From a virus (lineage: Duplodnaviria > Heunggongvirae > Uroviricota > Caudoviricetes), in IMG/VR virus record IMGVR_UViG_3300045253_000164, positions 26,314 to 90,313 of that record: a DNA stretch of 64,000 nucleotides; one strand, given 5' to 3'. Of this stretch, positions 1,909 through 57,291 are shown piece by piece (positions within the stretch are counted from its first letter, which is position 1; every line of letters begins with the position of its first letter). The translations under genes and the position numbers were made by a program. Below the pieces are notes generated by a model. That model had not been told where the DNA came from and did not search any database. It saw only the letters and a list, made by a program, of their open reading frames with translations.

Positions 1909-3285
1909 CTAGGGTGGGGGCGGCTCCAGTAGCACGGGTGTCTTCTGGGTGGCGTCTTGGTAGCGCTGGAGAATCATGGCGCAGTAGTCCGGGCTAATCT
2001 CCATCGCCCTCGCCTGACGGTGCGTGTTCTCTGCGGCAATGATCGTGCTGCCCGAGCCGGTGAATGGGTCGTACACGACATCTCCCGCATCCGTAAATGC
2101 GTTGATGAAAAACGACGGCAGGCCCACGGGAAACGCCGCAGCATGCCCAACAGCATCATGCGTCGCCGCCATTGCCGGGATGCGATTGCCCGGATAGGCC
2201 ATCCCTGGTCCGATATACTCACCGGCATCTTTCGATCTGCCTTGGACATCCGACATCAACGCCGATGTTCCATTGCGCCGTTTCTTGGCCGCACCAAATG
2301 AACCGGAAACGCTCTTCGCACCACGTCCGCCCTGCACATCGCGCCAACTCGTCTCGCCACTTCCCGCACCTCCGGCCCGTGGCACATTCTCGCTTGCATG
2401 GCGTACATGATCAGGGCGCATTTTCCATCGCCCGCGAACGAATTGGTAAATGGGCTCGAACTGGTTTTTGAACCGCTGCGTTACCGACTTCGGCACGCCA
2501 TTGCGCTCCCAGCAAAACTCGGTCGCAAAGTGCCATCCCCACGTGCGAACATGGGCAATCACCAAATCCATCACGTAGAGAAACGTATCGAGACCGTCGC
2601 AGGACGGTTTGATGTTTACGAACCACGACCCATCCGGCGCGAGATGCGCGGCCACGTGCGCAGCGACGGGCGCGAACCACTCCACGTACTGATCCGGGGC
2701 GATAGGTTTGAACCCCGACTTCGCATCGTAGTCGCGCTGCTCTGCATAGGGCGGCGACGTGAATGCGATGTTTATTTTCTCGCCGCCCATCAGCCGCGCC
2801 ACGTCCTCCGCCTTCGTGCTGTCGCCACAGAGTAGCCGATGCTCCCCCAGCTGCCAGAGTTGCCCCGTCGCCGTGCGCCACTGCTGCTGTAACTCCGCTG
2901 CGCGATCGATTTGCGGCTCGGCGTCGGCATCGCCGTGGCCCTCATCGCTGGCCGCCGCAATCAATGCCCGCAGCTCCTTGTCGCTCCACATCGCCTTCGT
3001 TGCCTCGGGCATCTCGGTCGCGATCTGCTGGAGGACGGTCGTATCCCATTCAGCGAGCTCAGCGGTACGATTGTCGTACAGCGCGAGCTTCGTTTTCTGC
3101 TCGGGGGTCAAGCCGGTGCGACGCACGGCCACCAGCGTCTCGCCATCGGTATCGACCACTTGCACGCGTTCAATCCCCGCTGCAGCAGCGGCCTCGATCG
3201 TGGCGTTGCCGGCTAGAACCACGCCATCCTCGTCGATGACGATGGGCCGGGCGGCGCCCACGTCCCGCATGGACTGCTCCACCAT
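1909..3285 (-). CDS. ParB-like nuclease domain fused to amino-(N6A/N4C) DNA methyltransferase
   Basis: An N-terminal ParB/Srx-like segment is present (RPIVIDEDGVVLAGNATIEAAAAAGIERVQVVD). MTase motif IV INIAFTSPPY comes first, followed by motif I DPFTGSGST near the C-terminus (beta-class order). The ORF track extends to 3414 with an alternative start; the internal ATGs at 3285 and 3270 avoid overlap with the upstream gene, so the true start is uncertain. Confidence 0.7.
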   Translation of the reverse strand: MVEQSMRDVGAARPIVIDEDGVVLAGNATIEAAAAAGIERVQVVDTDGETLVAVRRTGLTPEQKTKLALYDNRTAELAEWDTTVLQQIATEMPEATKAMWSDKELRALIAAASDEGHGDADAEPQIDRAAELQQQWRTATGQLWQLGEHRLLCGDSTKAEDVARLMGGEKINIAFTSPPYAEQRDYDAKSGFKPIAPDQYVEWFAPVAAHVAAHLAPDGSWFVNIKPSCDGLDTFLYVMDLVIAHVRTWGWHFATEFCWERNGVPKSVTQRFKNQFEPIYQFVRGRWKMRPDHVRHASENVPRAGGAGSGETSWRDVQGGRGAKSVSGSFGAAKKRRNGTSALMSDVQGRSKDAGEYIGPGMAYPGNRIPAMAATHDAVGHAAAFPVGLPSFFINAFTDAGDVVYDPFTGSGSTIIAAENTHRQARAMEISPDYCAMILQRYQDATQKTPVLLEPPPP

Positions 3286-3362
3286 ACCGACATTGCGCGG
3301 AGTATGCCGCCGGGCGTTGCGTGGATCGGGCCGCAAGTCTCGGAGGTGCGTGCTGGGTGTCG

Positions 3363-4064
3363 TCACGCGGCGCCGAGCCGAATTGTGGCCCACCGCTTTT
3401 CGATTCTTTCGCATACTGCCTCGTCCTTCACTTCGTTGCGCACGTCGAGCCCCATCTGCGTCATGATCCGGTAGAAGTCGTGGCGCGACATATTGCCCTT
3501 GATGTCTTCGATGGTTTGTACGACCCGGGCAATGGCCAGGATGGTGTTGCGGGCTTCGGAGATGTCGACGATCTGCCGCGGCTTGCCCTCATCGGCCAGT
3601 GTGGCGTGTTGACTCAGCGTCTCAATGGCGCCGCGAATCTTGTCGGGGTCCTGCGTGCGCAGCGCATACTGAAAAGCTCCCACGGCCTTGGCAAACTCGT
3701 CACGGGTGGATTTCCAGCTCTGATGCCATGTCAAGATGGCGTCTCGCCAGGCGTCGTAGCGCTCGATGAAGTCGACGAGAATCGCCCGGGCGTGGAACAG
3801 CTCGGGCAGGAGGTTCAGGGGGTCCTTGTCCTTGGCGAACTGTGCGGCGAGCTCCTTGAGGCGTTCATGCTGGAGCCCCTCGTACCGTTGGCTGCGCCGC
3901 CCGTGCTTCAACTGCTTCGTGACGTTGCGGCCGCCGTGGTACATACAACGGCCAGATTTTGGGTGATCTGTGCCCGCTCCCGCACTATTTTGACAGAACT
4001 TTCCCGGCTTTTTGGCGAGACGGGAATTACACTTATCGGTCGGGGGTGGGGAGTTGCGCGCCAT
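3363..4064 (-). CDS. putative terminase small subunit / packaging-associated DNA-binding protein
   Basis: 233 aa, basic N-terminus with a Cys/His cluster (CNSRLAKKPGKFCQNSAGAGTDHPKSGRCMYHGG). It sits immediately upstream of the MTase-TerL pair. Assignment rests mainly on position. Confidence 0.3.
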   Translation of the reverse strand: MARNSPPPTDKCNSRLAKKPGKFCQNSAGAGTDHPKSGRCMYHGGRNVTKQLKHGRRSQRYEGLQHERLKELAAQFAKDKDPLNLLPELFHARAILVDFIERYDAWRDAILTWHQSWKSTRDEFAKAVGAFQYALRTQDPDKIRGAIETLSQHATLADEGKPRQIVDISEARNTILAIARVVQTIEDIKGNMSRHDFYRIMTQMGLDVRNEVKDEAVCERIEKRWATIRLGAA

Positions 4065-4144
4065 TCACGGTCACGGCCGCGCCCTCGATACCGGCGGGGC
4101 CTTCAAATTTGGCGGGTAACGCACACCGCGGTGTTGTGCAAGCC

Positions 4145-13311: not shown

Positions 13312-15618
13312 TCAGTACAACGTCGGATCCACCACCCAGTAGCTCGCCACAATGTAGGGCGTCGTGCCGCTGCCCCAATCCGGGGCCACATGGAACGGCG
13401 GCGTGTTCACCGTCGCGGTCACCGAACCCGGCACCACCAGCAACGTCGTGGCGGCGTCGAGCTCGATGAGATTGAGCGCCGCGACCTGGCCCTGCTGCAC
13501 TGCTTGCGCCTGCACGCCCAGCAACATCTGCTGATAGTCCAGAAAGTTGAACCGGGTGGCCTGGCACTGCACGGAGTACCGCGCGCGCTCCGCTCCCACG
13601 AAGCCCACGTCCAGCTCTTGGACCAAGGCCGTTCCGGAGAACGTGAACCCCGTGACCGCCGGCGTCACCACCACCGGCACCGAGTCGCCCACCTTCCACG
13701 TCGGCACCCAGGAGTCGAAGCTGATGACGGTGACCACGTTGCTCCACCGCGCAAGCTCCAGGTCGCCGCGCGCCCGCGCAACCGCAAACGACGTGAGCGA
13801 GGTATCGTTCACGGCATAGTCGCGGACGCCGCCGTACAGCGCCGCATTGTAGTGCTCGGCAATCTGCGTCCCGGACAGCGCGTAGGCATACACCGCCACT
13901 TCGTCCAACGACCCCAGCAACCGGTGGCTGCCGGTGTCGTAGTTGTAGTTGCCGATCTCGATGCCGCTGCCCGGAACCGTGCCGGGGTTGAGGAGTACCG
14001 AGTCCTGCGCGACGAGCGTATTGTTGACGTACAGCGACCGGACCCGCGAGATGCCCACCGTCTGCCAGGTGCCGACCACATGGTCCCAGTTGGTCCCGGT
14101 CGGCTGGCCGCTGGCCGCAAACGCTACCAGTGGCGGATTCGTCGGATAGTTCTGGTCGTAGGCCAACCCATACGTGCCGCCAGAGGTCACCCACAGCGCG
14201 GCGCCGCCGCGAGCAAACGCGGTGTCCCATTGCCCCACAATACCCGCGTCACGATAGGCCGGGCTGCCATCGGGCAACGTGCTGCCAGTCTGGAATGTCG
14301 ACGTCCGGACCCAGGCCTCCAAGCTCCCGTTGCTCGTGGGAATCTTCGCCCCGCTCACCATCAGGATACGACCGCCGGCGAGATCCAGCGCCGTGTCGGT
14401 ATCCGCGTGAATCACCCCAGCGATGCCCAGCGTGGCATTGCCAGTCAGCATTCCCGAGAACGTGACCCCGGTGGCCGCGCTGTTCGCGATGCGGGATCCT
14501 GACGCCTCATCCAAGCGCCAGTAAAAGATTGGAGAGTCGCCCAGGACGACCGTAGAATAGGCGGTGCCATCCAGGGCGGCGACCGCCGCTTGCGACGGTT
14601 GGCTCTCGCGCATCACGGAGATCGGCACCTGCCATTGGTACGAGAACACCACCCGCGAGCCATCGGGAATGGTATCCGTGCCCACCGGGGTCCGGACATG
14701 CGCATTGTTGCCCGGCTCGAGAATGAAGCCGCCGGCGAACGTGCTTTCGTCCACCACCCCAGCCAGACCGACGCGCTGCGCGACGCCGTCGATCGTCATG
14801 AACGGCGACGCGCCGCTGATGGTCAGCGTGGCGACCACGTTATCGTGTGCCAGCGGAAAGACCGTGGTCTGGCCATCGGCGTCCCACTGGTCGATGACAG
14901 GAGTCGAGGATGCCGCACCCCCTTGCACAAAGATGCGGTTGCGCACCTGGTCCAGCTGCGGCTCGATTGACAGATTGTCGTAGTTCTGACTGGTGTTGGT
15001 GACCGACTCCGCCGAGGCCTGCGTCGTTGTACCGGCAGGGTAGAAGTGCAGCACGAGCGTGGCGTCGACGTAAAACTCGTAGGTAACGATCTGCGCGAGC
15101 TGCTGCACGACCGCCAAGGGATAGACAAACGCAAAGCTCACATGATCGAGGATGGTGGCCGTGTCCATCACGTTCGCGTCGATAATGACCTGCGGGGCGT
15201 ACTGGCGCACGACGTCGCGGACGATGTCAGAGACTTCCCAGCCGACGTACGTCTTGTTGACCAGAATCTGCGCCAGGAGGTTGGTGTAGTCGACGCACTG
15301 AATATCCCAGCGGGCCGCGCCTGGGCCCACCTTCACCTGCGTCACGTGACTGATGGATCCGCCAAACCGCGCGACAAACGGCTGGCCCGTACCGTTCTGC
15401 ACCTCGATCAATACCGACTGGCCGACGGTGGGCAGTGATCCCCCTGCCGTCCGCCATGAGCTTGGGGGAAACAGGGAGAACGACGCTGAGTCCACCTGGG
15501 CGCCCAGGATCTGACGGACCTGGATCGTGGAGGCCATCACCTCGCCCGTCGCCGTGCGATCGACGCCCGCGACCCAGACGCGGACGCTTGGCAGCGGCAG
15601 CGGGTAGGTAGTGGCCAT
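13312..15618 (-). CDS. distal tail protein (Dit/Tal-like) with a ConA/LamG-like jelly-roll domain
   Basis: 768 aa, immediately downstream of TMP. The central segment GSLEAWVR...GSLDEVAVYAYALSGTQIAEHY resembles a LamG/ConA-like lectin fold. Confidence 0.5.
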   Translation of the reverse strand: MATTYPLPLPSVRVWVAGVDRTATGEVMASTIQVRQILGAQVDSASFSLFPPSSWRTAGGSLPTVGQSVLIEVQNGTGQPFVARFGGSISHVTQVKVGPGAARWDIQCVDYTNLLAQILVNKTYVGWEVSDIVRDVVRQYAPQVIIDANVMDTATILDHVSFAFVYPLAVVQQLAQIVTYEFYVDATLVLHFYPAGTTTQASAESVTNTSQNYDNLSIEPQLDQVRNRIFVQGGAASSTPVIDQWDADGQTTVFPLAHDNVVATLTISGASPFMTIDGVAQRVGLAGVVDESTFAGGFILEPGNNAHVRTPVGTDTIPDGSRVVFSYQWQVPISVMRESQPSQAAVAALDGTAYSTVVLGDSPIFYWRLDEASGSRIANSAATGVTFSGMLTGNATLGIAGVIHADTDTALDLAGGRILMVSGAKIPTSNGSLEAWVRTSTFQTGSTLPDGSPAYRDAGIVGQWDTAFARGGAALWVTSGGTYGLAYDQNYPTNPPLVAFAASGQPTGTNWDHVVGTWQTVGISRVRSLYVNNTLVAQDSVLLNPGTVPGSGIEIGNYNYDTGSHRLLGSLDEVAVYAYALSGTQIAEHYNAALYGGVRDYAVNDTSLTSFAVARARGDLELARWSNVVTVISFDSWVPTWKVGDSVPVVVTPAVTGFTFSGTALVQELDVGFVGAERARYSVQCQATRFNFLDYQQMLLGVQAQAVQQGQVAALNLIELDAATTLLVVPGSVTATVNTPPFHVAPDWGSGTTPYIVASYWVVDPTLY

Positions 15619-35650: not shown

Positions 35651-37093
35651 CTACCCTTCCACCATACGATCGCCGACCGCCAGCATATCCACGCCCAACT
35701 GCCGCGCCGTACCTTCCGCGTCGGTCACGGTGTTTGCCATCGCCTGCCCGTGCCCGTTGAAGCTGGTGTTGAGCAGCATCGGCACACCCGTTGCGCAACC
35801 GAACGCCGCGAGGATGTGACCGAGCACAGACGACTCGTCGACGAGCTGCACACGCGCCGACCCGTCGGCGTGTACAGCGGCCGGCGCCAGCCGCCGCATC
35901 TCCTCGGTGGCCTGGCAGATCGTGGTCATGAACTCGTAGGCGCCGGGATCGATCAGGTCGAAGTAACGTCGGGCGTGTCGACGCAGCACGACCGGCGCCA
36001 CCGGCCGCCACGGCGCGCGCTGCTTCATCTCGTTCAGCCGGCCCTTGATGGCGAGCGATCGCGGATCCGCCAAAAGCGAGCGATGACCCAGCGCTCTTGG
36101 TCCCGACTCAGCGCGGCCGTTCACCAGCGCGACGATCTGCCCCTCGAGCAGCGCGTCGACGACGCGATCAACATTGGGTGTGCCTTCCAATCCCGGCTCC
36201 GTCCAGCCGGCAAACGCCACCTGCTCCACGGAGTACCGTCGGCGTGGCTCTCCCAGGATCCGATGCAGGACATACAACGCTGCCCCGATGGACAGGCCGC
36301 CATCGTCGCACGCAGGAGGTACCCATGCAGCGGGAACATGACCGGAGCGGAGCAATGCATGCACGGCAATCCCGTTGAGCGCGCAGCCGCCGGCGATCAC
36401 CACCGGACGCCCTGCAGGCACGAGCTCGTGGAACGCGTCGATCGTCTGGGCCTCGAGCGTCGCCACGCGCGATCGGACGGCGGGGTCCATTCCCGTTCGA
36501 GCGGTGAAATCCTCCGCGGGAATACCGAGCAGCGCCATGACGGTGCCTTCTTGAAACTGCCCGCCGCAGATCTGGTGGGAGGCGTCGTTCCAGGCGCCCC
36601 CGATACCAGGGCAGGGATGCCAGCGGATGCCGAAGGTTTCGCCGTTGCCATTGCCCACTGCGCAGGTGATCACCTTGAGCCCTTCGGGCGTCTTGTAGGC
36701 GTCGCCGCCGCCGTCCAGCGCGAGAATCGAAGCCTGGTCGTAAGGACTCGTGTAGTAGGCATACGCGGCGTGGGCCGTGTGATGAGGAATGCCGAAGGCG
36801 CGGCGATCTCCACCGAGCACGCAGCTCGAGCGGTCATCGAACTGCATCAGGTCGTCCCAGCCGTTGCGCGTAATGCCGAACATCCCCGATACGCCGGCCA
36901 TATAGGTGATCTGCTCCCGGGTGATCCCGATCAGTCGGCAGGCGTCGTCGACCTGCTCCATCGGTGCTAGGGTATCGTGCCGGATGCGGGTGAAGCGCTC
37001 GCGCTCGAAGTGGACGATCTTGCCGTCGCCGACAATGGCGAAGCTGCCGTCGTGGCCCTGGTAAGCGCCCAGCACGTAGATGGGGTCAGCCAT
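35651..37093 (-). CDS. NodU/CmcH-family O-carbamoyltransferase
   Basis: 480 aa; IPHHTAHAAYAYYTSPY, ESGPRALGHRSLLADPR and MLLNTSFNGHGQ match the conserved carbamoyltransferase N- and C-domain motifs. Confidence 0.75.
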   Translation of the reverse strand: MADPIYVLGAYQGHDGSFAIVGDGKIVHFERERFTRIRHDTLAPMEQVDDACRLIGITREQITYMAGVSGMFGITRNGWDDLMQFDDRSSCVLGGDRRAFGIPHHTAHAAYAYYTSPYDQASILALDGGGDAYKTPEGLKVITCAVGNGNGETFGIRWHPCPGIGGAWNDASHQICGGQFQEGTVMALLGIPAEDFTARTGMDPAVRSRVATLEAQTIDAFHELVPAGRPVVIAGGCALNGIAVHALLRSGHVPAAWVPPACDDGGLSIGAALYVLHRILGEPRRRYSVEQVAFAGWTEPGLEGTPNVDRVVDALLEGQIVALVNGRAESGPRALGHRSLLADPRSLAIKGRLNEMKQRAPWRPVAPVVLRRHARRYFDLIDPGAYEFMTTICQATEEMRRLAPAAVHADGSARVQLVDESSVLGHILAAFGCATGVPMLLNTSFNGHGQAMANTVTDAEGTARQLGVDMLAVGDRMVEG

Positions 37094-45882: not shown

Positions 45883-46206
45883 TCACTCCCGCGAGCGCAC
45901 AAAGACGCGGTGCTGGCCCCAGGTCGACGCGGAATCGGTGACCTCGCGAAGTTCGCCAAGTTCAACCATTCGGTCCAACGCGGCCAGCGCGAGCCAGGAG
46001 TCACCGATCATGACGTGGCTCGATTGGAATGCCCCAGCCTTCCCCAACAGGTCCTGGACCTTGTCGCGAATAGCCAGGAAGCTGCGCTGTCCGTCTTCGG
46101 TGAACAGTCGGTCCCGCTGGCCGGCATAGCTGTATCCCGGCCGCTCTGCTTCATGGGCGCGCATGGCGGCAAGCCTCCCTTCTTCTCTGGCAATGGCTTT
46201 GCACAA
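45883..46206 (-). CDS. hypothetical protein upstream of the island
   Basis: 107 aa; its 5' end abuts the GCACAA(A/G)AGC motif cluster. Confidence 0.35.
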   Translation of the reverse strand: MCKAIAREEGRLAAMRAHEAERPGYSYAGQRDRLFTEDGQRSFLAIRDKVQDLLGKAGAFQSSHVMIGDSWLALAALDRMVELGELREVTDSASTWGQHRVFVRSRE

Positions 46207-46259
46207 GAGCTAGCACAATCGCGCCTGCTTTTGTGCAGAAATGGGCGCCGCACAAAAGC
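46197..46259. promoter_or_regulatory. operator-like motif cluster: TTGCACAAGAGC, plus perfect inverted repeat GCTTTTGTGC-N13-GCACAAAAGC
   Basis: Seen directly in sequence; GCTTTTGTGC at 46227-46236 and GCACAAAAGC at 46250-46259. The same GCTTTTGTGCAGA 13-mer recurs at 47968. Confidence 0.45.
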
Positions 46260-46320
46260 TCGGCGTGATCCCCAGCTCGTACATCATATACTAGAAGTAT
46301 AGCCAAGGCAAGGGAAATCT

Positions 46321-46381: not shown

Positions 46382-46579
46382 GTGAGACAAGGGCGCATGC
46401 CACGGAAAGAGCGCACCGTTACAATCTGGGTGTGCAACCGCTGCGATCACGAGTGGCAGTCGCGCACCGATGAGGAACCGACGGTCTGCGCAAACTGCAA
46501 GAGTCCGTATTGGGACAAGCCGCGCCGCAACGCGGTCCCGAAGAAGACGCACCGAGGTGGAAAGCATGCCGCAGGTTGA
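46382..46579 (+). CDS. zinc-ribbon protein
   Basis: 65 aa, GTG start; CNRCDHEW...CANCKSPYW (two CxxC). It overlaps the start of the downstream MTase. Confidence 0.45.
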   Translation: MRQGRMPRKERTVTIWVCNRCDHEWQSRTDEEPTVCANCKSPYWDKPRRNAVPKKTHRGGKHAAG

Positions 46580-47534
46580 ACTCGCTGATCATGAATTAGG
46601 GCCAGCGGCGGCGCGGATGGACGACGGAGTTGCCTGGAAGGTGCAGAAGGGCGACGCCTACGATCTCCTACAGAAAGTTGCGCCCGCATCCGTCGACTTG
46701 ATTTTAACAAGGCCGCCCTATTGGGGGCATCGCTCATACGGGCAGGATCACAACTGGAACACGCTCCGCGAATGGCTGGCGACTAACAAGGATGCGGTCA
46801 CCATCCCATCCTACGAGTGGTATCGCGCACAAGGCGGCGTGCTTGGGCTGGAACCGCTGCCCGAGTGGTACGTGGCCCACATGGTCGAAATTTTCGAGCA
46901 CGCCCGCACCTGCATGAAGCCCACGGGAAGCATGTGGGTCAACATGGGCGATACGTACTTCGCGCGCTGGGCCAGCATCCGCGAAGGTGGTCGGCAAGGA
47001 CTCGGCGGGAATCCGCGCGCGCGGCGGCGCACGCCAATGGGCGGATACCGCCAGGAAAAACAACTCCTCATGGTGCCGGCGCGCTTCGCAATAGCGATGC
47101 AGGACAGCCGCTGGATACTCCGCAACGACCTGATTTGGTACAAGCCCAATGTTCCACCCCGACCCGAGTCGGATCGCCTACGCTTGGCTCACGAACACTT
47201 CTTTCACTTCGTGAAGCGACCGAAGATCGGGCGGGCCAAATATTACTATGCCATCGACCAAGTTGAACCTGGCACCACTGACGTGGTGACCTGTTACGCC
47301 AGCGCCGGTGGAAACGGCCACAGCGCCACATTTCCAGAGAAGCTGATCCGACCGCGCATCCTGAGTTCCTGCCCGGCAGGTGGCCTCACGATTGATCCCT
47401 TCTGCGGGACGGGCCGCGCGCTAACGGTCGCTGTCGAATCAGGCCGCCGCGCCATTGGCTTCGATTCTTCGGCAATGTATGTACGGGCAACACGTGCTGC
47501 ATTGCAGAAGCTGAATGCCGAAGCGCACAAATAA
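46566..47534 (+). CDS. amino-(N6A/N4C) DNA methyltransferase, beta-class
   Basis: Start at ATG 46566 (MPQVELADHELG). Motif IV DLILTRPPYW comes first; motif I IDPFCGTGRALTVAVESGRRAIGFDSS is near the C-terminus. Confidence 0.7.
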   Translation: MPQVELADHELGPAAARMDDGVAWKVQKGDAYDLLQKVAPASVDLILTRPPYWGHRSYGQDHNWNTLREWLATNKDAVTIPSYEWYRAQGGVLGLEPLPEWYVAHMVEIFEHARTCMKPTGSMWVNMGDTYFARWASIREGGRQGLGGNPRARRRTPMGGYRQEKQLLMVPARFAIAMQDSRWILRNDLIWYKPNVPPRPESDRLRLAHEHFFHFVKRPKIGRAKYYYAIDQVEPGTTDVVTCYASAGGNGHSATFPEKLIRPRILSSCPAGGLTIDPFCGTGRALTVAVESGRRAIGFDSSAMYVRATRAALQKLNAEAHK

Positions 47535-47954: not shown

Positions 47955-47967
47955 TCAAGCACCTTGA

Positions 47968-48015
47968 GCTTTTGTGCAGACGGCCGAGCTATTGTGCGGG
48001 AGCCAGCTATTGTGC
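47968..48015. promoter_or_regulatory. operator-like motif cluster: GCTTTTGTGCAGA, GCTATTGTGC x2
   Basis: Three spaced copies of the GCT(T/A)TTGTGC motif just upstream of the start of gene 47694..47954. Confidence 0.45.
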
Positions 48016-48261
48016 AAAGCCTCTGGCAATCAGCCTCTTCGTGCTTTCGATTAGGCGATCTGGAATGAAGGCATCACAAATCATCGCGCAGCTCCTTTCG
48101 CGCAACTTTGCATCCACGCCAGAAACGCCCGCCAGCACGCGACGCACAGGTGCATCTTGGTCACGTTCCACGCCTCATTCGTCGGCGGTGAAAAAGCTAA
48201 GCCGCCTGGAGCATCCAATTCCTGAGAGCACCGCGCGCACGTGACCTTGATCATCGCTCCC

Positions 48262-48720: not shown

Positions 48721-48986
48721 GCCGCCTTCGTCCGCGATGTCCGCTTCGCGTGCCGTTGCGTTGCGGGGTTCCACAATCGGCCCACGCGGCAGGCGTAACA
48801 ACCAGGACCGCACGGGCAGCGCTCTGTCTCGATGCCCGACGTCGTCACCCGGCGCGCCGCCACTGGCAGTGGTTGGCCGGGATGCCAATCCTTCGTACGC
48901 CGGAGTTGATCGATGGTCCGTGCATCGGCTTCCCGGACCGTACCGAACGCGTGCGTGCCTGGTGACCACGTCGTCGCCATAGTCAT
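48717..48986 (-). CDS. small Cys-rich protein
   Basis: ~89 aa from ATG 48986; CPCGPGCYAC; ATGA overlaps at both ends. Confidence 0.35.
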   Translation of the reverse strand: MTMATTWSPGTHAFGTVREADARTIDQLRRTKDWHPGQPLPVAARRVTTSGIETERCPCGPGCYACRVGRLWNPATQRHAKRTSRTKAA

Positions 48987-49990
48987 CGCCCCATCCCCTC
49001 CTGCACCCAACTCGGCGGCAGCTGTTTCGTGATCTCAATCTGCGCAAAGCGCGTCGGCTCCTGGGGGCCGCGCTGGCGCGCCCAATGCGCCATTTCGGCG
49101 AGACCCAGAGCGAGCGGCGTTGACGGTCGGTCGCCGAACACACGGCGGAGCTTGTCGTGCGTACAGTAGGCGTCCCGCACCTCGACGCGCGCCGGCAGAT
49201 GGACGAACGGCGCCTGGGGCATGCCCATTGCCGCCGCTGTCAGATAGGCAATCTCGTTGATCGTGTATGCGGTGTCGGCGCCGACGTTGAAGACCTCCCC
49301 GCAGACGTCGGGTCGGGTCACCGCTTCCGCGATCAGCGGCGCGACGTCCGCGATGTAGCTGAACGCCCGCGTTTGGTTGCCGTCGCCGAAGATGGTCAGC
49401 GGCTCCCCGCGCAAGAGCTGGTTCATGAAGATACCGATGACGTTCCGGTAGCGGTCGCCGATGTGCTGATGTCCCCCGAATACGTTATGAGGACGGAAGA
49501 TCACCGTCTCCAAGCCGAACAGCCGTGCGGCCGTCGCCAGGTGTTGCTCGACCGCGTACTTCGCGATGCCGTAGGGGTCCTCGGGCTGTGGCTGCGTCTC
49601 CTCGGTCATCGGCACCGGCGCCGCGCCATACACCGCCATGCTTGAGGTGAACACGAAGCGCTGGACCCCATGGTTCACTGCAGCTGCAATCAGGTTGCAC
49701 GAGCCCACCAGGTTGTTCTCGTAGTTGAACCGGGGAATGAAGTGGCTGAGCCCCTCCGCGGCATACGCAGCCAGGTGACACACCGCGTCGAAGCGATGGT
49801 CGGTGAACACGCGATGCACGAAGAACGGGTCCGTGATGCTGCCCTGCCAGAAGCTCGCCGCGGGCGGCACGTTGTCCAGAAAGCCGCCGCTCAGATCGTC
49901 GACCGCGCACACCTGATGGCCGGCCTTCAGCAGCTCGGCGGCGACGTGAGACCCGATGAAGCCTGCGGCCCCGGTGACCAGGACGTTCAT
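48983..49990 (-). CDS. NAD-dependent NDP-sugar epimerase/dehydratase (extended SDR)
   Basis: MNVLVTGAAGFIGSHVA (Rossmann GxxGxxG), YGIAKY (YxxxK). Confidence 0.7.
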   Translation of the reverse strand: MNVLVTGAAGFIGSHVAAELLKAGHQVCAVDDLSGGFLDNVPPAASFWQGSITDPFFVHRVFTDHRFDAVCHLAAYAAEGLSHFIPRFNYENNLVGSCNLIAAAVNHGVQRFVFTSSMAVYGAAPVPMTEETQPQPEDPYGIAKYAVEQHLATAARLFGLETVIFRPHNVFGGHQHIGDRYRNVIGIFMNQLLRGEPLTIFGDGNQTRAFSYIADVAPLIAEAVTRPDVCGEVFNVGADTAYTINEIAYLTAAAMGMPQAPFVHLPARVEVRDAYCTHDKLRRVFGDRPSTPLALGLAEMAHWARQRGPQEPTRFAQIEITKQLPPSWVQEGMGR

Positions 49991-50211
49991 GCGGCCCTCC
50001 GCTGACGACAGTCAGGGCAGCGAGAATGCCCATCGGTCTTGCCGCCACACTGACCGCACAACCCCGCAGCGCGGCGTCGGTGGTAACGGTTCAGCGTACG
50101 GGTCTTGGATTTCGCCGAGCATTGGCGGCACAGCACGCGGTTGGCAGGACGCGGCGCGCCGCACTTCTCGCAGAGTCGGAGTTTGCGCCGGCGGCAGAGG
50201 ATGCAGCTCAT
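49987..50211 (-). CDS. small zinc-ribbon-like Cys-rich protein
   Basis: MSCILCRRRKLRLCEKCGAPRPANRVLCRQCS...CGQCGGKTDGHSRCPDCRQ; the ATG at 50211 overlaps the upstream TGA (verified in sequence). Confidence 0.4.
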   Translation of the reverse strand: MSCILCRRRKLRLCEKCGAPRPANRVLCRQCSAKSKTRTLNRYHRRRAAGLCGQCGGKTDGHSRCPDCRQRRAA

Positions 50212-51179
50212 GCCGCCCTCCGCTTTTCCATTCCCAGCTGCCGCGCCTGGTCGTCCACCACGTCCCGCACGATGTCCTCCCAGCGGTCCACGAAGCTCAG
50301 GCCCGTGAGGCGCTGGAGCTTGGTCGTGTCCGGAACTCGGCATTGCATCCGCTGCCACGCCAAGTCGCCGGTCTCTTCCCAGGGGATGTGGTTGACGCCC
50401 TGCGGCAGCACGCCGTACCGCTCCATCACGTCGAGCTGGATCCGCAGCGCGGCGGAGCGCATCGACAACCGCGGCTCAGTGGCACCGACGTTGACCACCT
50501 GGCCCACGGCCTCGGGGGTCTCGGCGAGCGCCAGCAGTGCCCGCACCGTGTCGCTGACGTGCGTGAAGCAGCGTTCCTGCTGTCCGGTGCCGTGGATCGT
50601 GATCGGCTCGCCCTTCAACGCAGCGCGCGCGAAGATCGGTAGCACGAACGCGTGGCGTTGGCCCGACCCGACGCAGTTGAACAGCCGGGCGATGATCGCT
50701 TGGGCGCCGCCCTCCGCATGACTGGCCAGCGCGACGTGCTCCATCGCCAGTTTGGACACCGCATAGCCCCAGCGCGGATGGCAGGAGGGACCGATCACGG
50801 ACTCGTCGACGTCCTCGCGAAACGGCGGCGACGTGTTGGCGCCGTAGACCTCGGAGCTCGAGGTGAAGACAATGGGGCAGCCGGCATACATCGCTAGGCT
50901 ACACAGGTAAGCCGCATCATCGGCGTGTTCCGTCATCATGCGGAACCGCAGGCGCACCACATCGGCAGGCCCCACTATGGCTGCCAGATGAAAGATGGCG
51001 TCGAGCTTCCCCAGACCGGCTTCCCGAACGTCGCATTGACGAAAGTCGATGGCGGGACTTCCGGGCGGCAACGGGTGGTGATCACAGCCAGCCACGTCCC
51101 ACCCCTCGGCCACCAGATGCCGCGCCAAGTGCTGCCCGATGAATCCCGACACTCCCGTAATCAACGCTCGCGTCATCAC
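50208..51179 (-). CDS. NAD-dependent NDP-sugar epimerase/dehydratase (extended SDR)
   Basis: MMTRALITGVSGFIGQHLA, YAVSK. Confidence 0.7.
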   Translation of the reverse strand: MMTRALITGVSGFIGQHLARHLVAEGWDVAGCDHHPLPPGSPAIDFRQCDVREAGLGKLDAIFHLAAIVGPADVVRLRFRMMTEHADDAAYLCSLAMYAGCPIVFTSSSEVYGANTSPPFREDVDESVIGPSCHPRWGYAVSKLAMEHVALASHAEGGAQAIIARLFNCVGSGQRHAFVLPIFARAALKGEPITIHGTGQQERCFTHVSDTVRALLALAETPEAVGQVVNVGATEPRLSMRSAALRIQLDVMERYGVLPQGVNHIPWEETGDLAWQRMQCRVPDTTKLQRLTGLSFVDRWEDIVRDVVDDQARQLGMEKRRAA

Positions 51180-51206
51180 AACCCCTCCACCACCAGACCA
51201 GCGGCG

Positions 51207-52621: not shown

Positions 52622-52659
52622 GGGTGTTCGTGCTGACGCGGCTGACTGCATGGGGCGCG

Positions 52660-54247: not shown

Positions 54248-54404
54248 GTCTACTCGCCGTCACTTTTTCTGCGGACAGGTGTCACGAGTGAGTGCCCATG
54301 CGTTACGCGCTCGGAAACGGCTTGGCGGATTGCGCCTAGAACCGACGGCGTGGCATTTCGCAAACGCCGCCCCTGGCGCGCCGATATACTTCCGCTTCGC
54401 CATC

Positions 54405-54599
54405 CTACCCCACCTTCCCGCCGACCAACCGCTGCCGATCGCACTGCTGGCGGTGCTGCTCGAGCGCCCGGGTGCGGGCCATACCTGCCGTAGTGTCAGC
54501 CACGATGTGCTCACAGCCGAGCGCCGGCCCGGTGGCGTGGCGGATGCGCGCTGTGAGCTGGCCGCGGACGCTGAGGATCATCACGCGGTAGCGCCTCAT
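54405..54599 (-). CDS. small hypothetical protein
   Basis: 64 aa from ATG 54599 (MRRYRVMILSVRG...), ATGA overlap with the VRR-NUC stop. Confidence 0.25.
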   Translation of the reverse strand: MRRYRVMILSVRGQLTARIRHATGPALGCEHIVADTTAGMARTRALEQHRQQCDRQRLVGGKVG

Positions 54600-55045
54600 G
54601 CCGCCCTCACTAGTCGCTCGCCGCGCCACTCATGGACACAGCCCGTCAGGTACTCCAGGAGCACCGTGGCCGCGAATTGCCATGAGTAGCAGACCATCAC
54701 GCGGTAGCCGTGCTGCTTCAGCTGCTCATGTCGGGCTGATTGTTCAGGACTGACCCGACCCGTGCCGGCCTTCATCTCGATGCACAGTCCGTGATAGCCG
54801 CTGCGCGGCACTAGCAACAGCAAGTCGGGCTCCCCAGAGCGGACACCTTCACTTTTGAGCCGCTGCACCCGGGCGACATTCGCCTTGAAACCGCCGCTGT
54901 AGCCGCCGGCGTTGGGTACGGCGAAGAGTTCCGCGAGCTCCGGGTAGCGTGGAGACATGCGGGCGCACCAATCGATCAACGCCACCTGCTCGTGGTGCTC
55001 GAGCTGGCGTGGCTTCTGCCGGGTGTGTGACAGCCTGAGCGCCAT
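54596..55045 (-). CDS. VRR-NUC domain nuclease
   Basis: EHHEQVALIDWC...LFAVPNAGG...PDLLLLVPRSGYHGLCIEMK...SPEQ...GYRVMVCYSW matches the VRR-NUC layout (PD-(D/E)xK-type). Confidence 0.65.
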   Translation of the reverse strand: MALRLSHTRQKPRQLEHHEQVALIDWCARMSPRYPELAELFAVPNAGGYSGGFKANVARVQRLKSEGVRSGEPDLLLLVPRSGYHGLCIEMKAGTGRVSPEQSARHEQLKQHGYRVMVCYSWQFAATVLLEYLTGCVHEWRGERLVRAA

Positions 55046-55654
55046 CTACGCCGCCTTCCTGACTGCCACGTCGCGCCACTCCAGGAACGGCCAGCGATGC
55101 CGCGCCAGCCGTGACAAGGTCCGGTACTGCTTGGGGATCTCCGGGCGTACCCGGACATGCAATGTCCGCGATACACCGACCCGAAACGCGACCCGTCGGC
55201 CATCAGGCGTCACCAGGATGTGGATGCAGTGCGGTCTCACCCGGGCGGCCTTGTAGTAGCCTGAGGCGTGGGGATGAATCCGCCACTGGTAGTGGACGAA
55301 ATGCACGCGGATCGGGGTCGTGCCGAGCAGTGCCACGACCCGCTGATGGTCGACGACAACCAGCTTCACCCCAGGTCTGCGGCGCATCAGCTCAGCGACG
55401 ATGCGCCCGGTGGGGCTCTGGCGGTACGCAGTGAGGGCTTGTGCGGTTCGGGCGTGATGCGCAGTAGCTAGCTGACGGCGCCGGCGTTGCTTACGATCGG
55501 TACAGCCGGCCTTCTGTAGCACGAGATGCACGGCTTGGCGGGTGAGGGGAATCCCGGTGCGCGCGGCAATCTCCTGGGCAATGGCGGCCAGGCTCGGCGT
55601 TGTCGGCTGGGCGGCCAGCTCGACGATGAGGGCGTTGCGGGTAGCACGGGTCAT
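55046..55654 (-). CDS. HTH DNA-binding protein
   Basis: 202 aa; N-terminal IAQEIAARTGIPLTRQAVHLVLQKAG helix-turn-helix. Confidence 0.4.
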   Translation of the reverse strand: MTRATRNALIVELAAQPTTPSLAAIAQEIAARTGIPLTRQAVHLVLQKAGCTDRKQRRRRQLATAHHARTAQALTAYRQSPTGRIVAELMRRRPGVKLVVVDHQRVVALLGTTPIRVHFVHYQWRIHPHASGYYKAARVRPHCIHILVTPDGRRVAFRVGVSRTLHVRVRPEIPKQYRTLSRLARHRWPFLEWRDVAVRKAA

Positions 55655-56331
55655 GGACGGACCTCGTTCCCCGCAAAGCTCAACACTTCCTGCGCGCAGC
55701 GCTTGGCGGCGATTTCGCAGTAGCGTTCCTCGATCTCGACGCCGATGGCCTTGCGGCCAAGCGTCTTAGCCGCCTCGAGGGTTGTGCCACTGCCTACAAA
55801 TGCGTCCAGCACTGTTTCACCTTCAAGGGTAGCAAGGGCAACCAACCACAGCATGAAAGCGATAGGCTTCGGGCACGGGTGGCCATTGTATTCTCCGGTG
55901 ACGTGCAGCCCCGGATGGTACATCACCCGCACAGTCGGCTCCTTTGTGGTGCGCGGTGGCAGTCCATAAAAGAGCACGGGATGCAGACAGTTGAATCCCC
56001 ATGCCCCAATGCCGCCGCCGTTTGGGCAAACTATTCCACCTATGTCTCTAGGGCCCGGATACGAATGCAGATTGCGAGAGCCGCAAAATATCGCCCCTCG
56101 CTTCACTCGTAACAGTGCTTCTCTAACTCGGGGAAGCACCTCGAGGCTGAAGGATTCTGCGGTGTCGTGATAGCCGTCCACCTGGTGCTTCGCGTGCTTG
56201 GTGTGAATGCCGGAGAACTCTACGCCATAGGGCGGGTCAGTCACCAATGCATCCGCCTCGAGGGCAGGCAGCACGTCGCGGCAGTCCCCATGGTACAGCG
56301 TCACCGCCGCGTCTTGGTAGTACGGCGTCAT
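55651..56331 (-). CDS. amino-(probably N6A) DNA methyltransferase, beta-class
   Basis: Start at MTPYYQD (ATG 56331). Motif IV LVTDPPYGVEF comes first; motif I LDAFVGSGTTLEAAKTLGRKAIGVEIE is at the C-terminus. Confidence 0.7.
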   Translation of the reverse strand: MTPYYQDAAVTLYHGDCRDVLPALEADALVTDPPYGVEFSGIHTKHAKHQVDGYHDTAESFSLEVLPRVREALLRVKRGAIFCGSRNLHSYPGPRDIGGIVCPNGGGIGAWGFNCLHPVLFYGLPPRTTKEPTVRVMYHPGLHVTGEYNGHPCPKPIAFMLWLVALATLEGETVLDAFVGSGTTLEAAKTLGRKAIGVEIEERYCEIAAKRCAQEVLSFAGNEVRP

Positions 56332-56413
56332 GGACGCCGCCCCCCCCCACGGGTGAACCAGGTGCCTGCAACGAGCAGGCAGAGGGTGAGGAAGACGAGG
56401 CCGGGTGGGTGGA

Positions 56414-56953
56414 TCATGCGGAGGCCTCCGCGGCAGCCGCACCAGGCCGGCGCCATCCAACAATCCCATTGAACGGCAATGGACGCTCGCCGGCCCGGTG
56501 CGAACGCCAGAACTGCTTCTTGCGCCGACTCAAGTGGCACGACACGCACAGCACCAACCGGTTCTCGTCGCGCCAGTCGCAGGCGTCGTTGTTTCGGTGC
56601 GTGTTGCACAGTCGCTCGGTACTGCCGCAGGCTTCACAATGCGTGCGCGGCGCGTGGCGCCACGGGCGTTGATGCGCGCCACCCTTCCAATTCCAGTGAC
56701 GCGGGCCGCCACGGGCAATCCGCTTGCGATGCTGGCGCGAGAGTCGCTTGCCGGTCCAGGGTGCGCAGAGCCGTCCCGCCGCCCGTGCTACGGCGCTCGC
56801 CTCAACGAGTGATCGCCGCGGTTCTCCGTGCCGGCGCAGCAAGGTGAGCACGCTGGCCGCGTGGCAGTGGTACCGCTCGGCAATCTGCCCACTGGACAGA
56901 CCATCACGATAGAGCGCCACGACGTCGGCGACTGGCAGGAGTTGGCGGCTCAT
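56414..56953 (-). CDS. HTH + HNH endonuclease
   Basis: N-terminal LSSGQIAERYHCHAASVLTLL (HTH); C-terminal CEACGS...LCNTHRNNDACDWRDENRLVLCVSCH (HNH with Zn Cys). Confidence 0.6.
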   Translation of the reverse strand: MSRQLLPVADVVALYRDGLSSGQIAERYHCHAASVLTLLRRHGEPRRSLVEASAVARAAGRLCAPWTGKRLSRQHRKRIARGGPRHWNWKGGAHQRPWRHAPRTHCEACGSTERLCNTHRNNDACDWRDENRLVLCVSCHLSRRKKQFWRSHRAGERPLPFNGIVGWRRPGAAAAEASA

Positions 56954-57291
56954 GTGTGATCCTCAGCGAATAGCGTCGCCGGATGGCCACAAGCGTTCGG
57001 TGACACCCACAGCACCTCAGTCCGTTTGCGAGCACCGTCGGCTAGGGCCTGTCGCTCCACGCGATGCCAGTCGGCATACAGCTCGCGGTCATAGAGATCG
57101 CATGCATAGCCAGACAAAATGACCATGCCCGTCACCGAACGGAGGACCTGCGCGAGCGCGCGATGATCCTCATTTCCCATCTCATGGCGATAGCCCTTGT
57201 TGGCCCTGAGCGTGTGCGGGCTGCGCGTAATCCGCATATAGGGCGGATCCACGTAGTGAAGCGTGAGCGGCGAATCATGTTGCAGAATCAC
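56950..57291 (-). pseudogene. C-terminal fragment of a Dam-family (D12-class) N6-adenine MTase
   Basis: LHYVDPPYMRI...GMVILSGYACDLYDRELYADWHRVERQALADGARKRTEVLWVSP parallels the Dam region from DPPY to the C-terminus. Motif IV lies at residue ~14. The ~170-aa SAM-binding N-terminal half is absent; the upstream frames encode unrelated small ORFs. Confidence 0.55.

What the first reader, a model, noticed from the sequence alone, without database searches (positions are those of the whole stretch)
1909..57291. Three complete orphan amino-MTases plus one Dam remnant, with no cognate restriction enzyme
Beta-class amino-MTases (motif IV before motif I) occur at 1909..3285 (SPPY), 46566..47534 (RPPY) and 55651..56331 (DPPY). 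A Dam-family C-terminal fragment lies at 56950..57291. No REase-like gene is adjacent. This suggests self-methylation as broad anti-restriction, possibly at three different motifs. Two HNH endonucleases and a VRR-NUC nuclease are the only nucleases nearby.
Basis: partly seen in the sequence, partly recalled or inferred. Interest (0 to 1): 0.5.

Follow-up and report, generated by a model that had tools for sequence, protein, structure and literature searches.

The report
Four solitary phage DNA methylases, two intact
A novel high-GC phage carries four DNA-methylase genes with no restriction partner. Only two look functional: one has a mutated active site and one is a truncated leftover. It is an ordinary case of phages gaining and losing anti-restriction methylases.

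Summary
The four methylase-related ORFs are real, but "three complete MTases" is too generous.

- **A (1909..3414, -)** is longer than reported. It is a ParB-like domain fused to a TSPPY beta-class MTase, and sits between a TerS-like gene and TerL. This is the published "ParB-Tls" packaging-locus arrangement. In 10/10 related viral loci tested, a large terminase follows it. It looks intact.
- **B (46566..47534, +)** belongs to the MTase family partnered with NotI-type restriction enzymes. A NotI-family REase is adjacent in 23/27 bacterial loci. All 119 closest homologs have TSPPYWG. The window alone has TRPPYWG, its only departure at 82 invariant columns, so B is probably catalytically impaired. 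The window has 14 GCGGCCGC sites, about as expected.
- **C (55651..56331, -)** is an intact small TDPPY MTase typical of phages.
- **D (56950..57327, -)** is the last ~40% of a D12/Dam-class MTase. No N-terminal half exists in the window.

No REase was detected. A near-orphan 202-aa gene overlapping C's stop codon remains uncharacterised. An independent Logan assembly reproduces the B and C/D regions exactly.

Verdict: solitary phage MTases at different stages of gain and decay. This is a new member of a known kind, of low to moderate interest.

The parts
1909..3414 (-). MTase A, 501 aa. It has a ParB-like N-terminal domain (aa ~22-171, nt ~2902-3351) and a beta-class N6/N4 amino-MTase domain (aa 214-481, nt ~1972-2775). 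Motif IV TSPPY starts at nt 2757. Motif I DPFTGSGST lies at nt ~2044-2070. Predicted m4C enzyme; looks intact.
   Evidence: PF01555 3.8e-29. phrog_498 7.9e-80 and ParB-like phrog_620 7.4e-28. Best PDB match is M.PvuII, an N4C MTase, at 4.2e-15. Of 99 columns conserved in at least 90% of 26 relatives, only one conservative departure, G470A. A weak Spo0J/ParB match covers aa 22-89.
37..1908 (-). Large terminase subunit, immediately downstream of MTase A.
   Evidence: PF03237 Terminase_6N, 1.5e-5. 26-29% identity to T4-like cyanophage TerL.
3363..4064 (-). TerS-like protein (Cys/HGG N-terminus), immediately upstream of MTase A.
   Evidence: phrog_9231 'terminase small subunit', 4e-5.
46566..47534 (+). 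MTase B, 322 aa. It belongs to the MTase family partnered with NotI-type REases and is solitary here. Motif IV reads TRPPYWG (Arg codon AGG at 46710-46712) where the family has TSPPYWG. Motif I DPFCGTGR lies at ~47394-47417. Probably catalytically impaired.
   Evidence: PF01555 1.3e-32. 64-78% identity to 119 homologs, all with Ser. It is the only departure at 82 invariant columns. A NotI-family REase is adjacent in 23/27 bacterial loci. Identical in the Logan contig L082.
46382..46579 (+). 65-aa zinc-ribbon ORF upstream of MTase B, overlapping its start. No counterpart next to the bacterial homologs.
   Evidence: Sub-threshold zinc-ribbon-type Pfam hits. tblastn finds nothing in 27 bacterial loci.
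46188..46261 (.). Left cluster of the GCTWTTGTGCARA motif (both orientations) and the left arm of a 27-nt imperfect inverted repeat. It flanks the MTase B cassette.
   Evidence: The motif occurs 4 times in the window against 0.12 expected, always on these two flanks.
47966..48028 (.). Right cluster of the same motif (three direct copies about 19 nt apart) and the right arm of the inverted repeat.
55651..56331 (-). MTase C, 226 aa. A small beta-class amino-MTase with motif IV TDPPYG (starting at nt 56238) and motif I DAFVGSGTT (~55780-55806). Predicted m6A enzyme; looks intact.
   Evidence: PF01555 4.9e-23. phrog_67 2.6e-47. All invariant columns of 12 homologs are kept. 115/120 homologs have DPPY. 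Homologs sit in phage-like contigs.
56950..57327 (-). Remnant of a D12/Dam-class (alpha) N6A MTase, covering motif IV (DPPY from nt 57249) to the C-terminus. The first start codon is GTG at 57291. Homology runs 11-12 codons further upstream, into the end of ORF 57315..57524. The in-frame stop is at 57358-57360. Motif I and the target-recognition region are absent.
   Evidence: phrog_56 4.1e-18. tblastn with four full-length relatives aligns only their residues 157-279. Relatives are 280-300 aa. L156 matches PF02086 at 2.2e-14, whereas the fragment gets 15.5 bits on profile positions 160-246. The junction is identical in Logan contig L268.
56414..56953 (-). Free-standing HNH endonuclease (HTH plus HNH) between the Dam remnant and MTase C. 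Its ATG overlaps the remnant's stop codon (ATGA).
   Evidence: phrog_8446 and phrog_7545 'HNH endonuclease', 1.2e-4 and 1.1e-3. Sequence read. No relatives in IMG/VR.
55046..55654 (-). 202-aa ORF with a helix-turn-helix N-terminus and an unknown C-terminal domain. Its start overlaps the stop of MTase C by 4 nt. Near-orphan; function unknown.
   Evidence: Weak HTH Pfam hits. No PHROG hit. Three real homologs among 1.84 billion representatives. AF2 model unusable, pLDDT 48.
54596..55045 (-). VRR-NUC nuclease (recombination/resolvase-type, not a restriction enzyme).
   Evidence: PF08774 1.5e-11. phrog_824 1e-37 and phrog_5702 'Holliday junction resolvase'.
62119..62670 (-). Possible second HNH-like ORF (CxxC ... 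DH ... CSTHNH), judged by eye only.
   Evidence: Translation. No Pfam or PHROG hit.

Best explanation
The window is part of a novel high-GC tailed phage, with TerS-like, TerL and capsid genes and nearly all genes on one strand. It has collected four solitary DNA amino-methyltransferase genes of separate origin. They are at different stages of a gain-and-decay cycle.

- **A** is a ParB-domain/TSPPY MTase fusion lodged between the terminase genes. It most likely methylates phage DNA (probably N4-cytosine) late, at or just before packaging. Inference: the ParB-like domain tethers it to the DNA being packaged.
- **C** is a small TDPPY enzyme (probably N6-adenine) in the early/recombination region.
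- **B** was captured from a bacterial NotI-type restriction-modification system without its endonuclease. It would have protected the phage's GCGGCCGC sites (14 in this window). Its catalytic motif IV serine is now arginine, so it is probably inactive or crippled.
- **D** is a 5'-truncated Dam-class pseudogene next to a free-standing HNH endonuclease gene.

The working enzymes protect progeny DNA against host Type II restriction. Shown: domain identities, motif states, genomic partners in relatives, and absence of a recognisable REase. Inferred: the methylated bases, the GCGGCCGC specificity, the loss of activity of B, and the timing of expression.
For: - Family membership and motif order.
- A: the ParB-like domain. 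In 10/10 related IMG/VR loci tested, the next large gene is a large terminase, drawn from three different TerL families. The same arrangement is described for 36 Paracoccus prophage MTases as the 'ParB-Tls locus', with a proposed role in directing modification during packaging (PMC6536676).
- B, restriction partner: adjacency to NotI-family REases in 4/4 and then 23/27 bacterial loci. The partner of the closest relative matches NotI (PDB 3bvq) at 4.5e-75.
- B, active site: Ser is invariant in 119/119 homologs, and the window departs only there among 82 invariant columns.
- B, role of the serine: the Ser hydroxyl of SPPY holds the water that marks the target N4 position in an N4C MTase structure (PMC10406627). 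SPPY is regarded as typical of N4C MTases (PMC2532716).
- GCGGCCGC sites: 14 sites against 13.6 (Markov) or 8.7 (shuffles) expected, so the phage does not avoid the site.
- D: only the C-terminal ~116 residues of a ~290-aa protein are present, and there is no N-terminal half in the window.
- No REase.
- Foreign origin: B, C and D have lower GC3 (0.67-0.69) than Pfam-supported neighbours (0.73-0.85), consistent with later acquisition.
- Sequence reliability: two Logan contigs from run SRR35384910 are 100% identical over 36566-50045 and 50026-62102.
Against: - No methylation data exist, so the bases, target sequences and activity are all inferred.
- Apart from S49R, B shows no decay (2 departures at 119 highly conserved columns; homologs range 0-4). 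That would also fit a very recent mutation, a minority allele, or a tolerated change.
- The Logan run may hold the same reads as the JGI assembly, so the two assemblies are not independent samples.
- NotI-family REases need not all cut GCGGCCGC.
- The window covers 64 kb of a 90.3-kb contig, so other MTase or REase genes, or a Dam N-terminal piece, could lie outside it.
- The function of ORF 55046..55654, whose start overlaps the stop of C, is unknown.
Confidence: 0.7

Rival explanations
1. One reading: three active solitary MTases with three different specificities give broad protection against restriction.
For: Three full-length PF01555 ORFs without frameshifts. Three distinct subfamilies that share only the generic domain. 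No REase detected.
Against: B has Arg in place of the motif IV Ser, which is invariant in 119/119 homologs. That residue sits at the methyl-acceptor position (PMC10406627).
Confidence: 0.15
2. The Ser->Arg codon (AGG) is a sequencing or consensus artefact, or a minority allele. The circulating phage has a normal SPPY enzyme.
For: It is a single-nucleotide change from AGC/AGT. The rest of B is perfectly conserved. This is metagenomic consensus data.
Against: The JGI-derived window and a separately assembled Logan contig agree over 13,480 nt, including this codon. However, they may derive from the same library.
Confidence: 0.12
3. The MTases serve the phage's own biology rather than anti-restriction. 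A ParB-MTase could mark DNA for packaging or regulate late genes. C could regulate replication or transcription.
For: A's fixed position next to terminases of three unrelated families. The published suggestion that ParB directs modification during packaging (PMC6536676).
Against: Packaging-coupled methylation is itself a way to protect progeny DNA, so the two roles are not exclusive. There is no evidence of regulatory motifs. B's origin in an R-M system points to protection.
Confidence: 0.15
4. One MTase is half of an unrecognised restriction-modification or addiction pair. The most plausible case is C with the 202-aa ORF 55046..55654, whose start overlaps C's stop codon.
For: A 4-nt start/stop overlap with C. 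No family assignment for its C-terminal domain. REases are notoriously hard to detect by profile.
Against: Relatives of C (78% and 61% identity) have unrelated small ORFs downstream. The ORF has an HTH N-terminus and only three homologs in 1.84 billion proteins. No PADLOC hit.
Confidence: 0.05

Closest known systems
ParB-domain DNA MTases of the 'ParB-Tls' locus in (pro)phages. Described for Paracoccus prophages (PMC6536676); per that paper, reported earlier in comparative-genomic work (its ref. 37).
   Same: An N-terminal ParB-like domain fused to a PF01555 m6A/m4C-type MTase, with the gene directly upstream of the terminase genes. Relatives show the same arrangement in 10/10 tested viral loci.
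   Different: Only 40-66% identical to the IMG/VR relatives, and at most 31% to any MTase in a GenBank phage. Here it lies between the TerS-like gene and TerL. Specificity is unknown.
MTase partner of NotI-type Type II restriction-modification systems (R.NotI, PDB 3bvq; GCGGCCGC).
   Same: 57-78% identity to MTases that sit next to NotI-family REases in 23/27 bacterial genomes from many phyla. Same length and the same motifs apart from one residue.
   Different: No REase partner in the window. It is phage-borne, which is rare: 3 hits in 2.9 million IMG/VR contigs, two of them without an REase within 3 kb, and all three with SPPY. The catalytic Ser is replaced by Arg. The best GenBank phage homolog is only 37% identical.
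Small solitary beta-class DPPY MTases of phages (phrog_67, for example the 'DNA methylase' genes of mycobacteriophages).
   Same: About 220 aa, with TDPPYG ... HPCPKP ... GSGTT motifs, located among small early-region genes with no REase.
   Different: 40% identity to the mycobacteriophage enzymes. The closest metagenomic relative is 78% identical, but in an otherwise unrelated phage.
D12-class (Dam-family, PF02086) phage N6-adenine MTases.
   Same: The fragment is 52-70% identical to the C-terminal parts of full-length 280-300-aa viral and metagenomic members, including the DPPY motif.
   Different: It lacks about 156 N-terminal residues, including the AdoMet-binding FxGxG region. It is below the Pfam threshold and is a pseudogene.
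Phage orphan MTases in general (review cited as ref. 28 in PMC6536676: Murphy et al. 2013).
   Same: Several solitary MTases per genome, of bacterial R-M origin, with a presumed anti-restriction role.
   Different: Nothing categorical. The particular interest here is one copy with an active-site substitution and one truncated copy alongside two intact ones.

Membership tests
Beta-class N6/N4 amino-MTase (Pfam PF01555) | Domain match above Pfam's gathering score | tested here: met
   A 102.6 bits, B 114 bits, C 82.7 bits, against a cut-off of 26.7.
Beta-class N6/N4 amino-MTase (Pfam PF01555) | Catalytic motif IV (D/N/S)PP(Y/F) N-terminal to AdoMet motif I (FxGxG) | tested here: met
   A: SPPY at aa 220-223, then DPFTGSGST at aa 449-457. 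C: DPPY at aa 32-35, then DAFVGSGTT at aa 176-184. B has the same order, with RPPY at aa 49-52 and DPFCGTGR at aa 277-284.
Beta-class N6/N4 amino-MTase (Pfam PF01555): catalytic competence of B | D, N or S at the first position of motif IV | tested here: not met
   B has Arg (AGG at 46710-46712). 119/119 homologs, 25/25 genome loci and 3/3 viral loci have Ser.
ParB-MTase fusion of the ParB-Tls locus | N-terminal ParB-like domain on the same polypeptide as the MTase | tested here: met
   phrog_620, phrog_8071 and phrog_723 'ParB-like' at 7e-28 to 3e-14 over aa 17-228. A weak Spo0J match. Pfam ParBc itself was not reported at E<=0.01.
ParB-MTase fusion of the ParB-Tls locus | Gene located immediately upstream of the terminase genes | tested here: met
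   In the window the order is TerS-like 3363..4064, then A, then TerL 37..1908. In 10/10 relatives a TerL follows. Defined in PMC6536676.
MTase of NotI-type R-M systems | High sequence identity to MTases genetically linked to NotI-family REases | tested here: met
   57-78% identity. An REase homolog is adjacent in 23/27 loci. The partner of the closest relative matches NotI (3bvq) at 4.5e-75.
MTase of NotI-type R-M systems | Cognate REase gene adjacent (a complete R-M system) | tested here: not met
   tblastn with the NotI-family partner finds nothing in the window (best E 2.2).
MTase of NotI-type R-M systems | Methylates GCGGCCGC and blocks NotI | not testable with these tools
   Needs a methylome or a NotI-protection assay. 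No paper on M.NotI was found in the library.
D12-class / Dam-family N6A MTase (PF02086) | Complete domain including the N-terminal AdoMet-binding motif I | tested here: not met
   The fragment covers profile positions 160-246 of 253 at 15.5 bits (cut-off 22). Full-length relative L156 scores 54.2 bits over positions 1-249. No N-terminal half anywhere in the window.
D12-class / Dam-family N6A MTase (PF02086) | DPPY motif IV in the C-terminal half (alpha-class order) | tested here: met
   VDPPY from nt 57249, aligned with HYVDPPY of the relatives.
Type II restriction-modification system | A restriction endonuclease gene next to the MTase | tested here: inconclusive
   No PADLOC hit in 51 ORFs and no REase Pfam family. 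Neighbours are TerL/TerS-like (A), zinc-ribbon ORFs (B), and an HNH plus an HTH near-orphan (C). REases often escape profiles, and 26 kb of the contig is unseen.
Free-standing HNH (homing-type) endonuclease | HNH catalytic motif with a zinc-binding Cys pair | tested here: inconclusive
   56414..56953: weak PHROG hits (1.2e-4, 1.1e-3) and the motif CEACGS...HRNND...CVSCH read from the sequence. No Pfam HNH hit.

The most novel reading that the evidence does not exclude
MTase B is not a dying gene. On this reading it is a retained, catalytically dead (or re-targeted) NotI-family MTase whose Arg49 variant binds GCGGCCGC sites without methylating them. It would shield them from a NotI-type host enzyme or act as a site-specific regulator, and it would be expressed from a cassette bracketed by its own repeated 13-nt operator-like motif.
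Probability: 0.05. Interest if true: 0.6.

Novelty: new member of a known kind. Interest (0 to 1): 0.25.

Why it matters
Solitary phage MTases are well known, so the main value is corrective: counting MTase ORFs overstates a phage's anti-restriction capacity.

- This genome shows a ParB-MTase packaging-locus enzyme, a typical early-region enzyme, an R-M-derived enzyme with a single active-site substitution, and a truncated Dam. That illustrates turnover of anti-restriction genes.
- The B family is a by-product of some use. It links a highly conserved MTase family (57-78% identity across the many phylum-level groups named in the hits) to NotI-family endonucleases. This gives a testable specificity prediction, and a natural Ser->Arg variant for probing motif IV function.

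Tried and rejected
- **Close relatives of the phage.** Looked for them to see an intact Dam or the ancestral locus.
  - megablast to GenBank phages: no match.
  - TerL in IMG/VR: one hit at 25%.
  - HNH in IMG/VR: none.
  - The 507-aa dockerin protein in metagenome contigs: none.
  - The best Dam relatives (up to 70% identity) are in unrelated contexts without the HNH or MTase C.
- **Beyond the window.** Exact look-ups with TerL, A-501 and A-458 found no record. The remaining 26 kb of the 90.3-kb contig was therefore not examined.
- **ORF 55046..55654.** Tried to decide whether it is a nuclease. The exhaustive HMMER search gave only three real homologs. The single-sequence AF2 model had pLDDT 48 and was not used for fold search.
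- **Site avoidance.** No palindromic 4-mer or 6-mer is convincingly depleted (the lowest z is about -3.6 for 4-mers and -2.5 for 6-mers, among 80 tests). GCGGCCGC and GATC occur at expectation. This gives no hint of host R-M pressure.
- **Literature on M.NotI.** Nothing usable on its methylated base.
- **Promoter and terminator scans** around B and C/D: nothing above chance.
- **Split or frameshifted Dam.** Considered and rejected. The other two reading frames upstream of the remnant and tblastn over the whole window show no trace of the N-terminal 156 residues.
- **Assembly chimera at the Dam junction.** Considered and rejected. Logan contig L268 is identical across it.
- **Extra (D/N/S)PP(Y/F) motifs** at 50831, 61745 and 61826 lie in an epimerase gene (50831) or in ORFs or frames with no MTase-family hit. 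They are taken as chance.
- **Methyltransf_24 and Methyltransf_11 genes** in the glycan cluster are small-molecule or sugar MTase types, not DNA MTases.

Full report
**Setting.** The window is about 64% GC, and almost all likely genes lie on the minus strand. Phage identity rests on three genes:
- a large terminase at 37..1908 (PF03237);
- a TerS-like gene at 3363..4064 (phrog_9231);
- a capsid protein at 24875..26122 (PF25209).

No GenBank phage is similar at the DNA level. TerL is only 26-29% identical to T4-like cyanophage terminases. MTase B, MTase C and three other ORFs match gene calls on one 90,313-nt JGI contig. The window therefore shows about 70% of that contig.

**Checking the observation.** The four ORFs exist. 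A, B and C each pass the Pfam PF01555 threshold. In each, motif IV precedes motif I, which is the beta-class order. Two corrections apply.
The frame opens at 3414. PHROG matches to ParB-like proteins and to the ParB-MTase family phrog_498 begin at residues 12-22. A column conserved in at least 90% of relatives (Asn33) lies upstream of Met44. A is therefore a 501-aa fusion of a ParB-like domain and an MTase.
- 'RPPY' in B is not a motif class. It is a one-off substitution, discussed below.

**MTase A.**
- Sixty-five IMG/VR loci encode relatives, most of them 40-66% identical. Many lie at contig ends.
- I took the large ORF just downstream in ten of them. All ten are large terminases. They belong to three different families: TerL_ATPase/TerL_nuclease, lambda GpA, and T4-type.
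- The association with the packaging genes therefore does not depend on terminase ancestry.
- This is the published 'ParB-Tls locus'. In Paracoccus prophages, 36 ParB-domain m6A/m4C MTases were all found upstream of the terminase genes. ParB was proposed to direct the modification apparatus during packaging (PMC6536676).
- All 26 full-length relatives share FTSPPYAEQR-type motif IV. The window departs at one of 99 well-conserved columns, conservatively as G470A.
- The best solved relative is M.PvuII, an N4-cytosine enzyme (4.2e-15). SPPY is regarded as typical of N4C enzymes (PMC2532716).
- Conclusion: A is intact and probably an m4C enzyme. Its sequence specificity is unknown.

**MTase B, family.**
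- The 120 best database hits are 64-78% identical. They come from Streptomyces, Micromonospora, Kouleothrix, Armatimonadota, Binatia and others.
- In four of four bacterial contexts examined, the MTase is followed by a homologous gene of roughly 240-400 aa (gene calls vary) with no Pfam assignment.
- The copy next to the closest relative matches the NotI restriction endonuclease (PDB 3bvq) at 4.5e-75 over nearly its whole length.
- A scan of species-representative genomes gave 27 loci at 57-78% identity, from Binatia, Acidobacteriota, Myxococcota, Planctomycetota, Gemmatimonadota, Verrucomicrobiota, Actinobacteria and others. Of these, 23 have a NotI-family gene adjacent.
- B therefore belongs to the MTase family that partners NotI-type enzymes. 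Its likely target is GCGGCCGC. This is inferred; family members might differ.
- The window has no NotI-family gene.

**MTase B, active site.**
- All 119 homologs read TSPPYWG in motif IV. The window reads TRPPYWG, encoded by AGG, one nucleotide away from AGC/AGT.
- Among 82 columns strictly invariant in the homologs, this is the window's only departure.
- All 25 genome loci that cover the motif have Ser, as do the three IMG/VR contigs that carry this family.
- In the structure of an SPPY N4C MTase, the Ser hydroxyl and the following Pro carbonyl hold the water that occupies the position of the target N4. This matches Asp/Pro of DPPY contacting N6 in CcrM (PMC10406627).
- A long cationic side chain there, next to the AdoMet sulfonium, should be strongly deleterious. 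This is inference from established MTase mechanism.
- The substitution is not an artefact of one assembler. Logan contig L082 is identical over 13,480 nt. It may, however, come from the same library.
- The phage does not avoid the site: 14 GCGGCCGC against 13.6 (Markov) or 8.7 +/- 3.0 (shuffles) expected. A working B would have had something to protect.

**MTase B, cassette.**
- B lies on the opposite strand to its neighbours, inside a glycan-biosynthesis cluster.
- It has lower GC and GC3 than the surrounding genes (0.605 and 0.68-0.69).
- A zinc-ribbon ORF precedes it, and this ORF is absent from the bacterial loci.
- The 1.8-kb segment is bracketed by a 13-nt motif that occurs nowhere else in the window (4 hits against 0.12 expected) and by a 27-nt imperfect inverted repeat.
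- This fits a horizontally acquired cassette, or shared regulatory sites. I could not decide between the two.

**MTase C.**
- The 226-aa product equals the JGI call.
- Homologs are 210-250 aa. In a 13-sequence alignment the window keeps every invariant residue: TDPPYG, HPCPKP and GSGTT. 115 of 120 homologs read DPPY.
- The closest relatives (78% and 61% identity) sit among small unannotated ORFs in phage-like contigs that share nothing else with the window.
- C is a typical solitary phage enzyme (phrog_67), probably m6A.

**The Dam remnant.**
- ORF D matches phrog_56 and phrog_1996.
- IMG/VR and metagenome relatives (up to 70% identity) are 280-300 aa. They have the N-terminal RYHGGKW...EPFGGG region of D12-class enzymes. 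One of them scores 2.2e-14 on PF02086 over the whole profile.
- Only residues ~157-279 of these proteins align to the window, at 57324/57327..56965. Nothing else in the window resembles the N-terminal 156 residues. The other two frames upstream show no trace either.
- Homology extends 11-12 codons upstream of the first possible start (GTG at 57291) and overlaps the end of ORF 57315..57524. This marks a deletion or recombination junction rather than a gene start.
- The junction is identical in Logan contig L268.
- D lacks the AdoMet-binding half and cannot be an enzyme on its own.
- Its stop overlaps the ATG of a free-standing HNH gene at 56414..56953. That gene has its own GAGGA upstream. The HNH may be connected with the rearrangement, but no relatives exist to test this.

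**Restriction enzymes and other nucleases.**
- No PADLOC model hit any of 51 further ORFs.
- The Pfam scans of the window ORFs found VRR_NUC as the only nuclease family and no REase family.
- VRR-NUC at 54596..55045 is a recombination-type nuclease.
- The second 'HNH' at 62119..62670 has no profile support.
- The one open point is ORF 55046..55654. It has an HTH N-terminus and an unknown C-terminal domain, and its start overlaps C's stop. It has only three real homologs in 1.84 billion representatives, and its structure could not be modelled. Relatives of C lack it, which argues against a cognate pair.

**Interpretation.**
- This is a phage with solitary MTases of separate origins. GC3 of B, C and D is 0.67-0.69, against 0.73-0.85 for Pfam-supported neighbours.
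- The genes are caught at different stages. Two are intact (A packaging-linked, C early-region). One has a fresh active-site lesion (B). One is truncated (D).
- Anti-restriction remains the most likely role.
- The kind of system is well known: phage orphan MTases and the ParB-Tls locus.
- Three points are specific here: the link of B's family to NotI-type endonucleases, the rarity of that family in viral contigs (3 of 2.9 million), and the natural Ser->Arg variant.

Noticed in passing
window 30672-52807: A ~22-kb glycan-biosynthesis cluster inside the phage. It holds at least 8 glycosyltransferases (GT1- and GT2-like), a DegT-family aminotransferase (33720..34856), a carbamoyltransferase (35651..37093), two NDP-sugar epimerase/dehydratases (48983..49990, 50208..51179), two Methyltransf_24 O-MTase-like genes and a Methyltransf_11 gene. 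It is unusually large for a phage. It may glycosylate virion proteins or modify the host surface. MTase B is inserted in it on the opposite strand.
   Followed up: partly
window 46188-46261 and 47966-48028: The 13-nt motif GCTWTTGTGCARA occurs 4 times in 64 kb (0.12 expected; 0/100 shuffles reach 4). All copies lie on the two flanks of the 1.8-kb MTase B cassette, together with a 27-nt imperfect inverted repeat at 46188-46214 / 48002-48028. These could be cassette boundaries or operator sites of divergent promoters.
   Followed up: partly
window 55046-55654 (-): A 202-aa ORF with an HTH N-terminus and a beta-rich C-terminal domain. Its start overlaps the stop of MTase C by 4 nt. Only three real homologs exist among 1.84 billion representative proteins, and they share motifs such as VPDGRR and FLEW.
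   Followed up: partly
L236-L262 (bacterial genome loci): NotI-type R-M systems are spread over the many phylum-level groups named in the hits. The MTase is strongly conserved (57-78% identity to the window copy), whereas the REase is much less so (32-56% among loci). The REase sits either downstream on the same strand or divergently upstream. No Pfam model recognises the NotI-family REase.
   Followed up: partly
L096 3092-5770: A relative's large terminase is 892 aa and carries a LAGLIDADG_3 domain (aa 304-366) ahead of the TerL ATPase (aa 449-569) and nuclease (aa 592-874) matches. It is probably an intein-containing terminase.
   Followed up: no
window 57719-59242 (-): A 507-aa protein with an N-terminal dockerin type I domain (PF00404, 1.5e-6) and no other recognisable domain. 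This is unusual in a phage. No relatives in the metagenome scan.
   Followed up: partly
window 5916-11816 and 15620-20299 (-): Two giant ORFs (1966 and 1559 aa) with essentially no family assignment; the first has only a sub-threshold glycine-rich domain hit. Between them, a 768-aa ORF (13312..15618) has a concanavalin/Laminin_G_3 domain. They are presumably tail or host-recognition proteins.
   Followed up: no
window 46470-47534, 55651-56469, 56950-57291: The DNA MTase genes B, C and D have GC3 of 0.67-0.69. They fell below the GC3 filter (>0.72) that picked up 64 other ORFs, among them nearly all the other Pfam-supported genes. This is a compositional hint that they are later acquisitions.
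   Followed up: partly
window 26646-28028 (-): A 460-aa ORF near the capsid gene carries DUF6582 (1.1e-28). A GNAT acetyltransferase is also present somewhere among the scanned ORFs (its position was not resolved).
   Followed up: no
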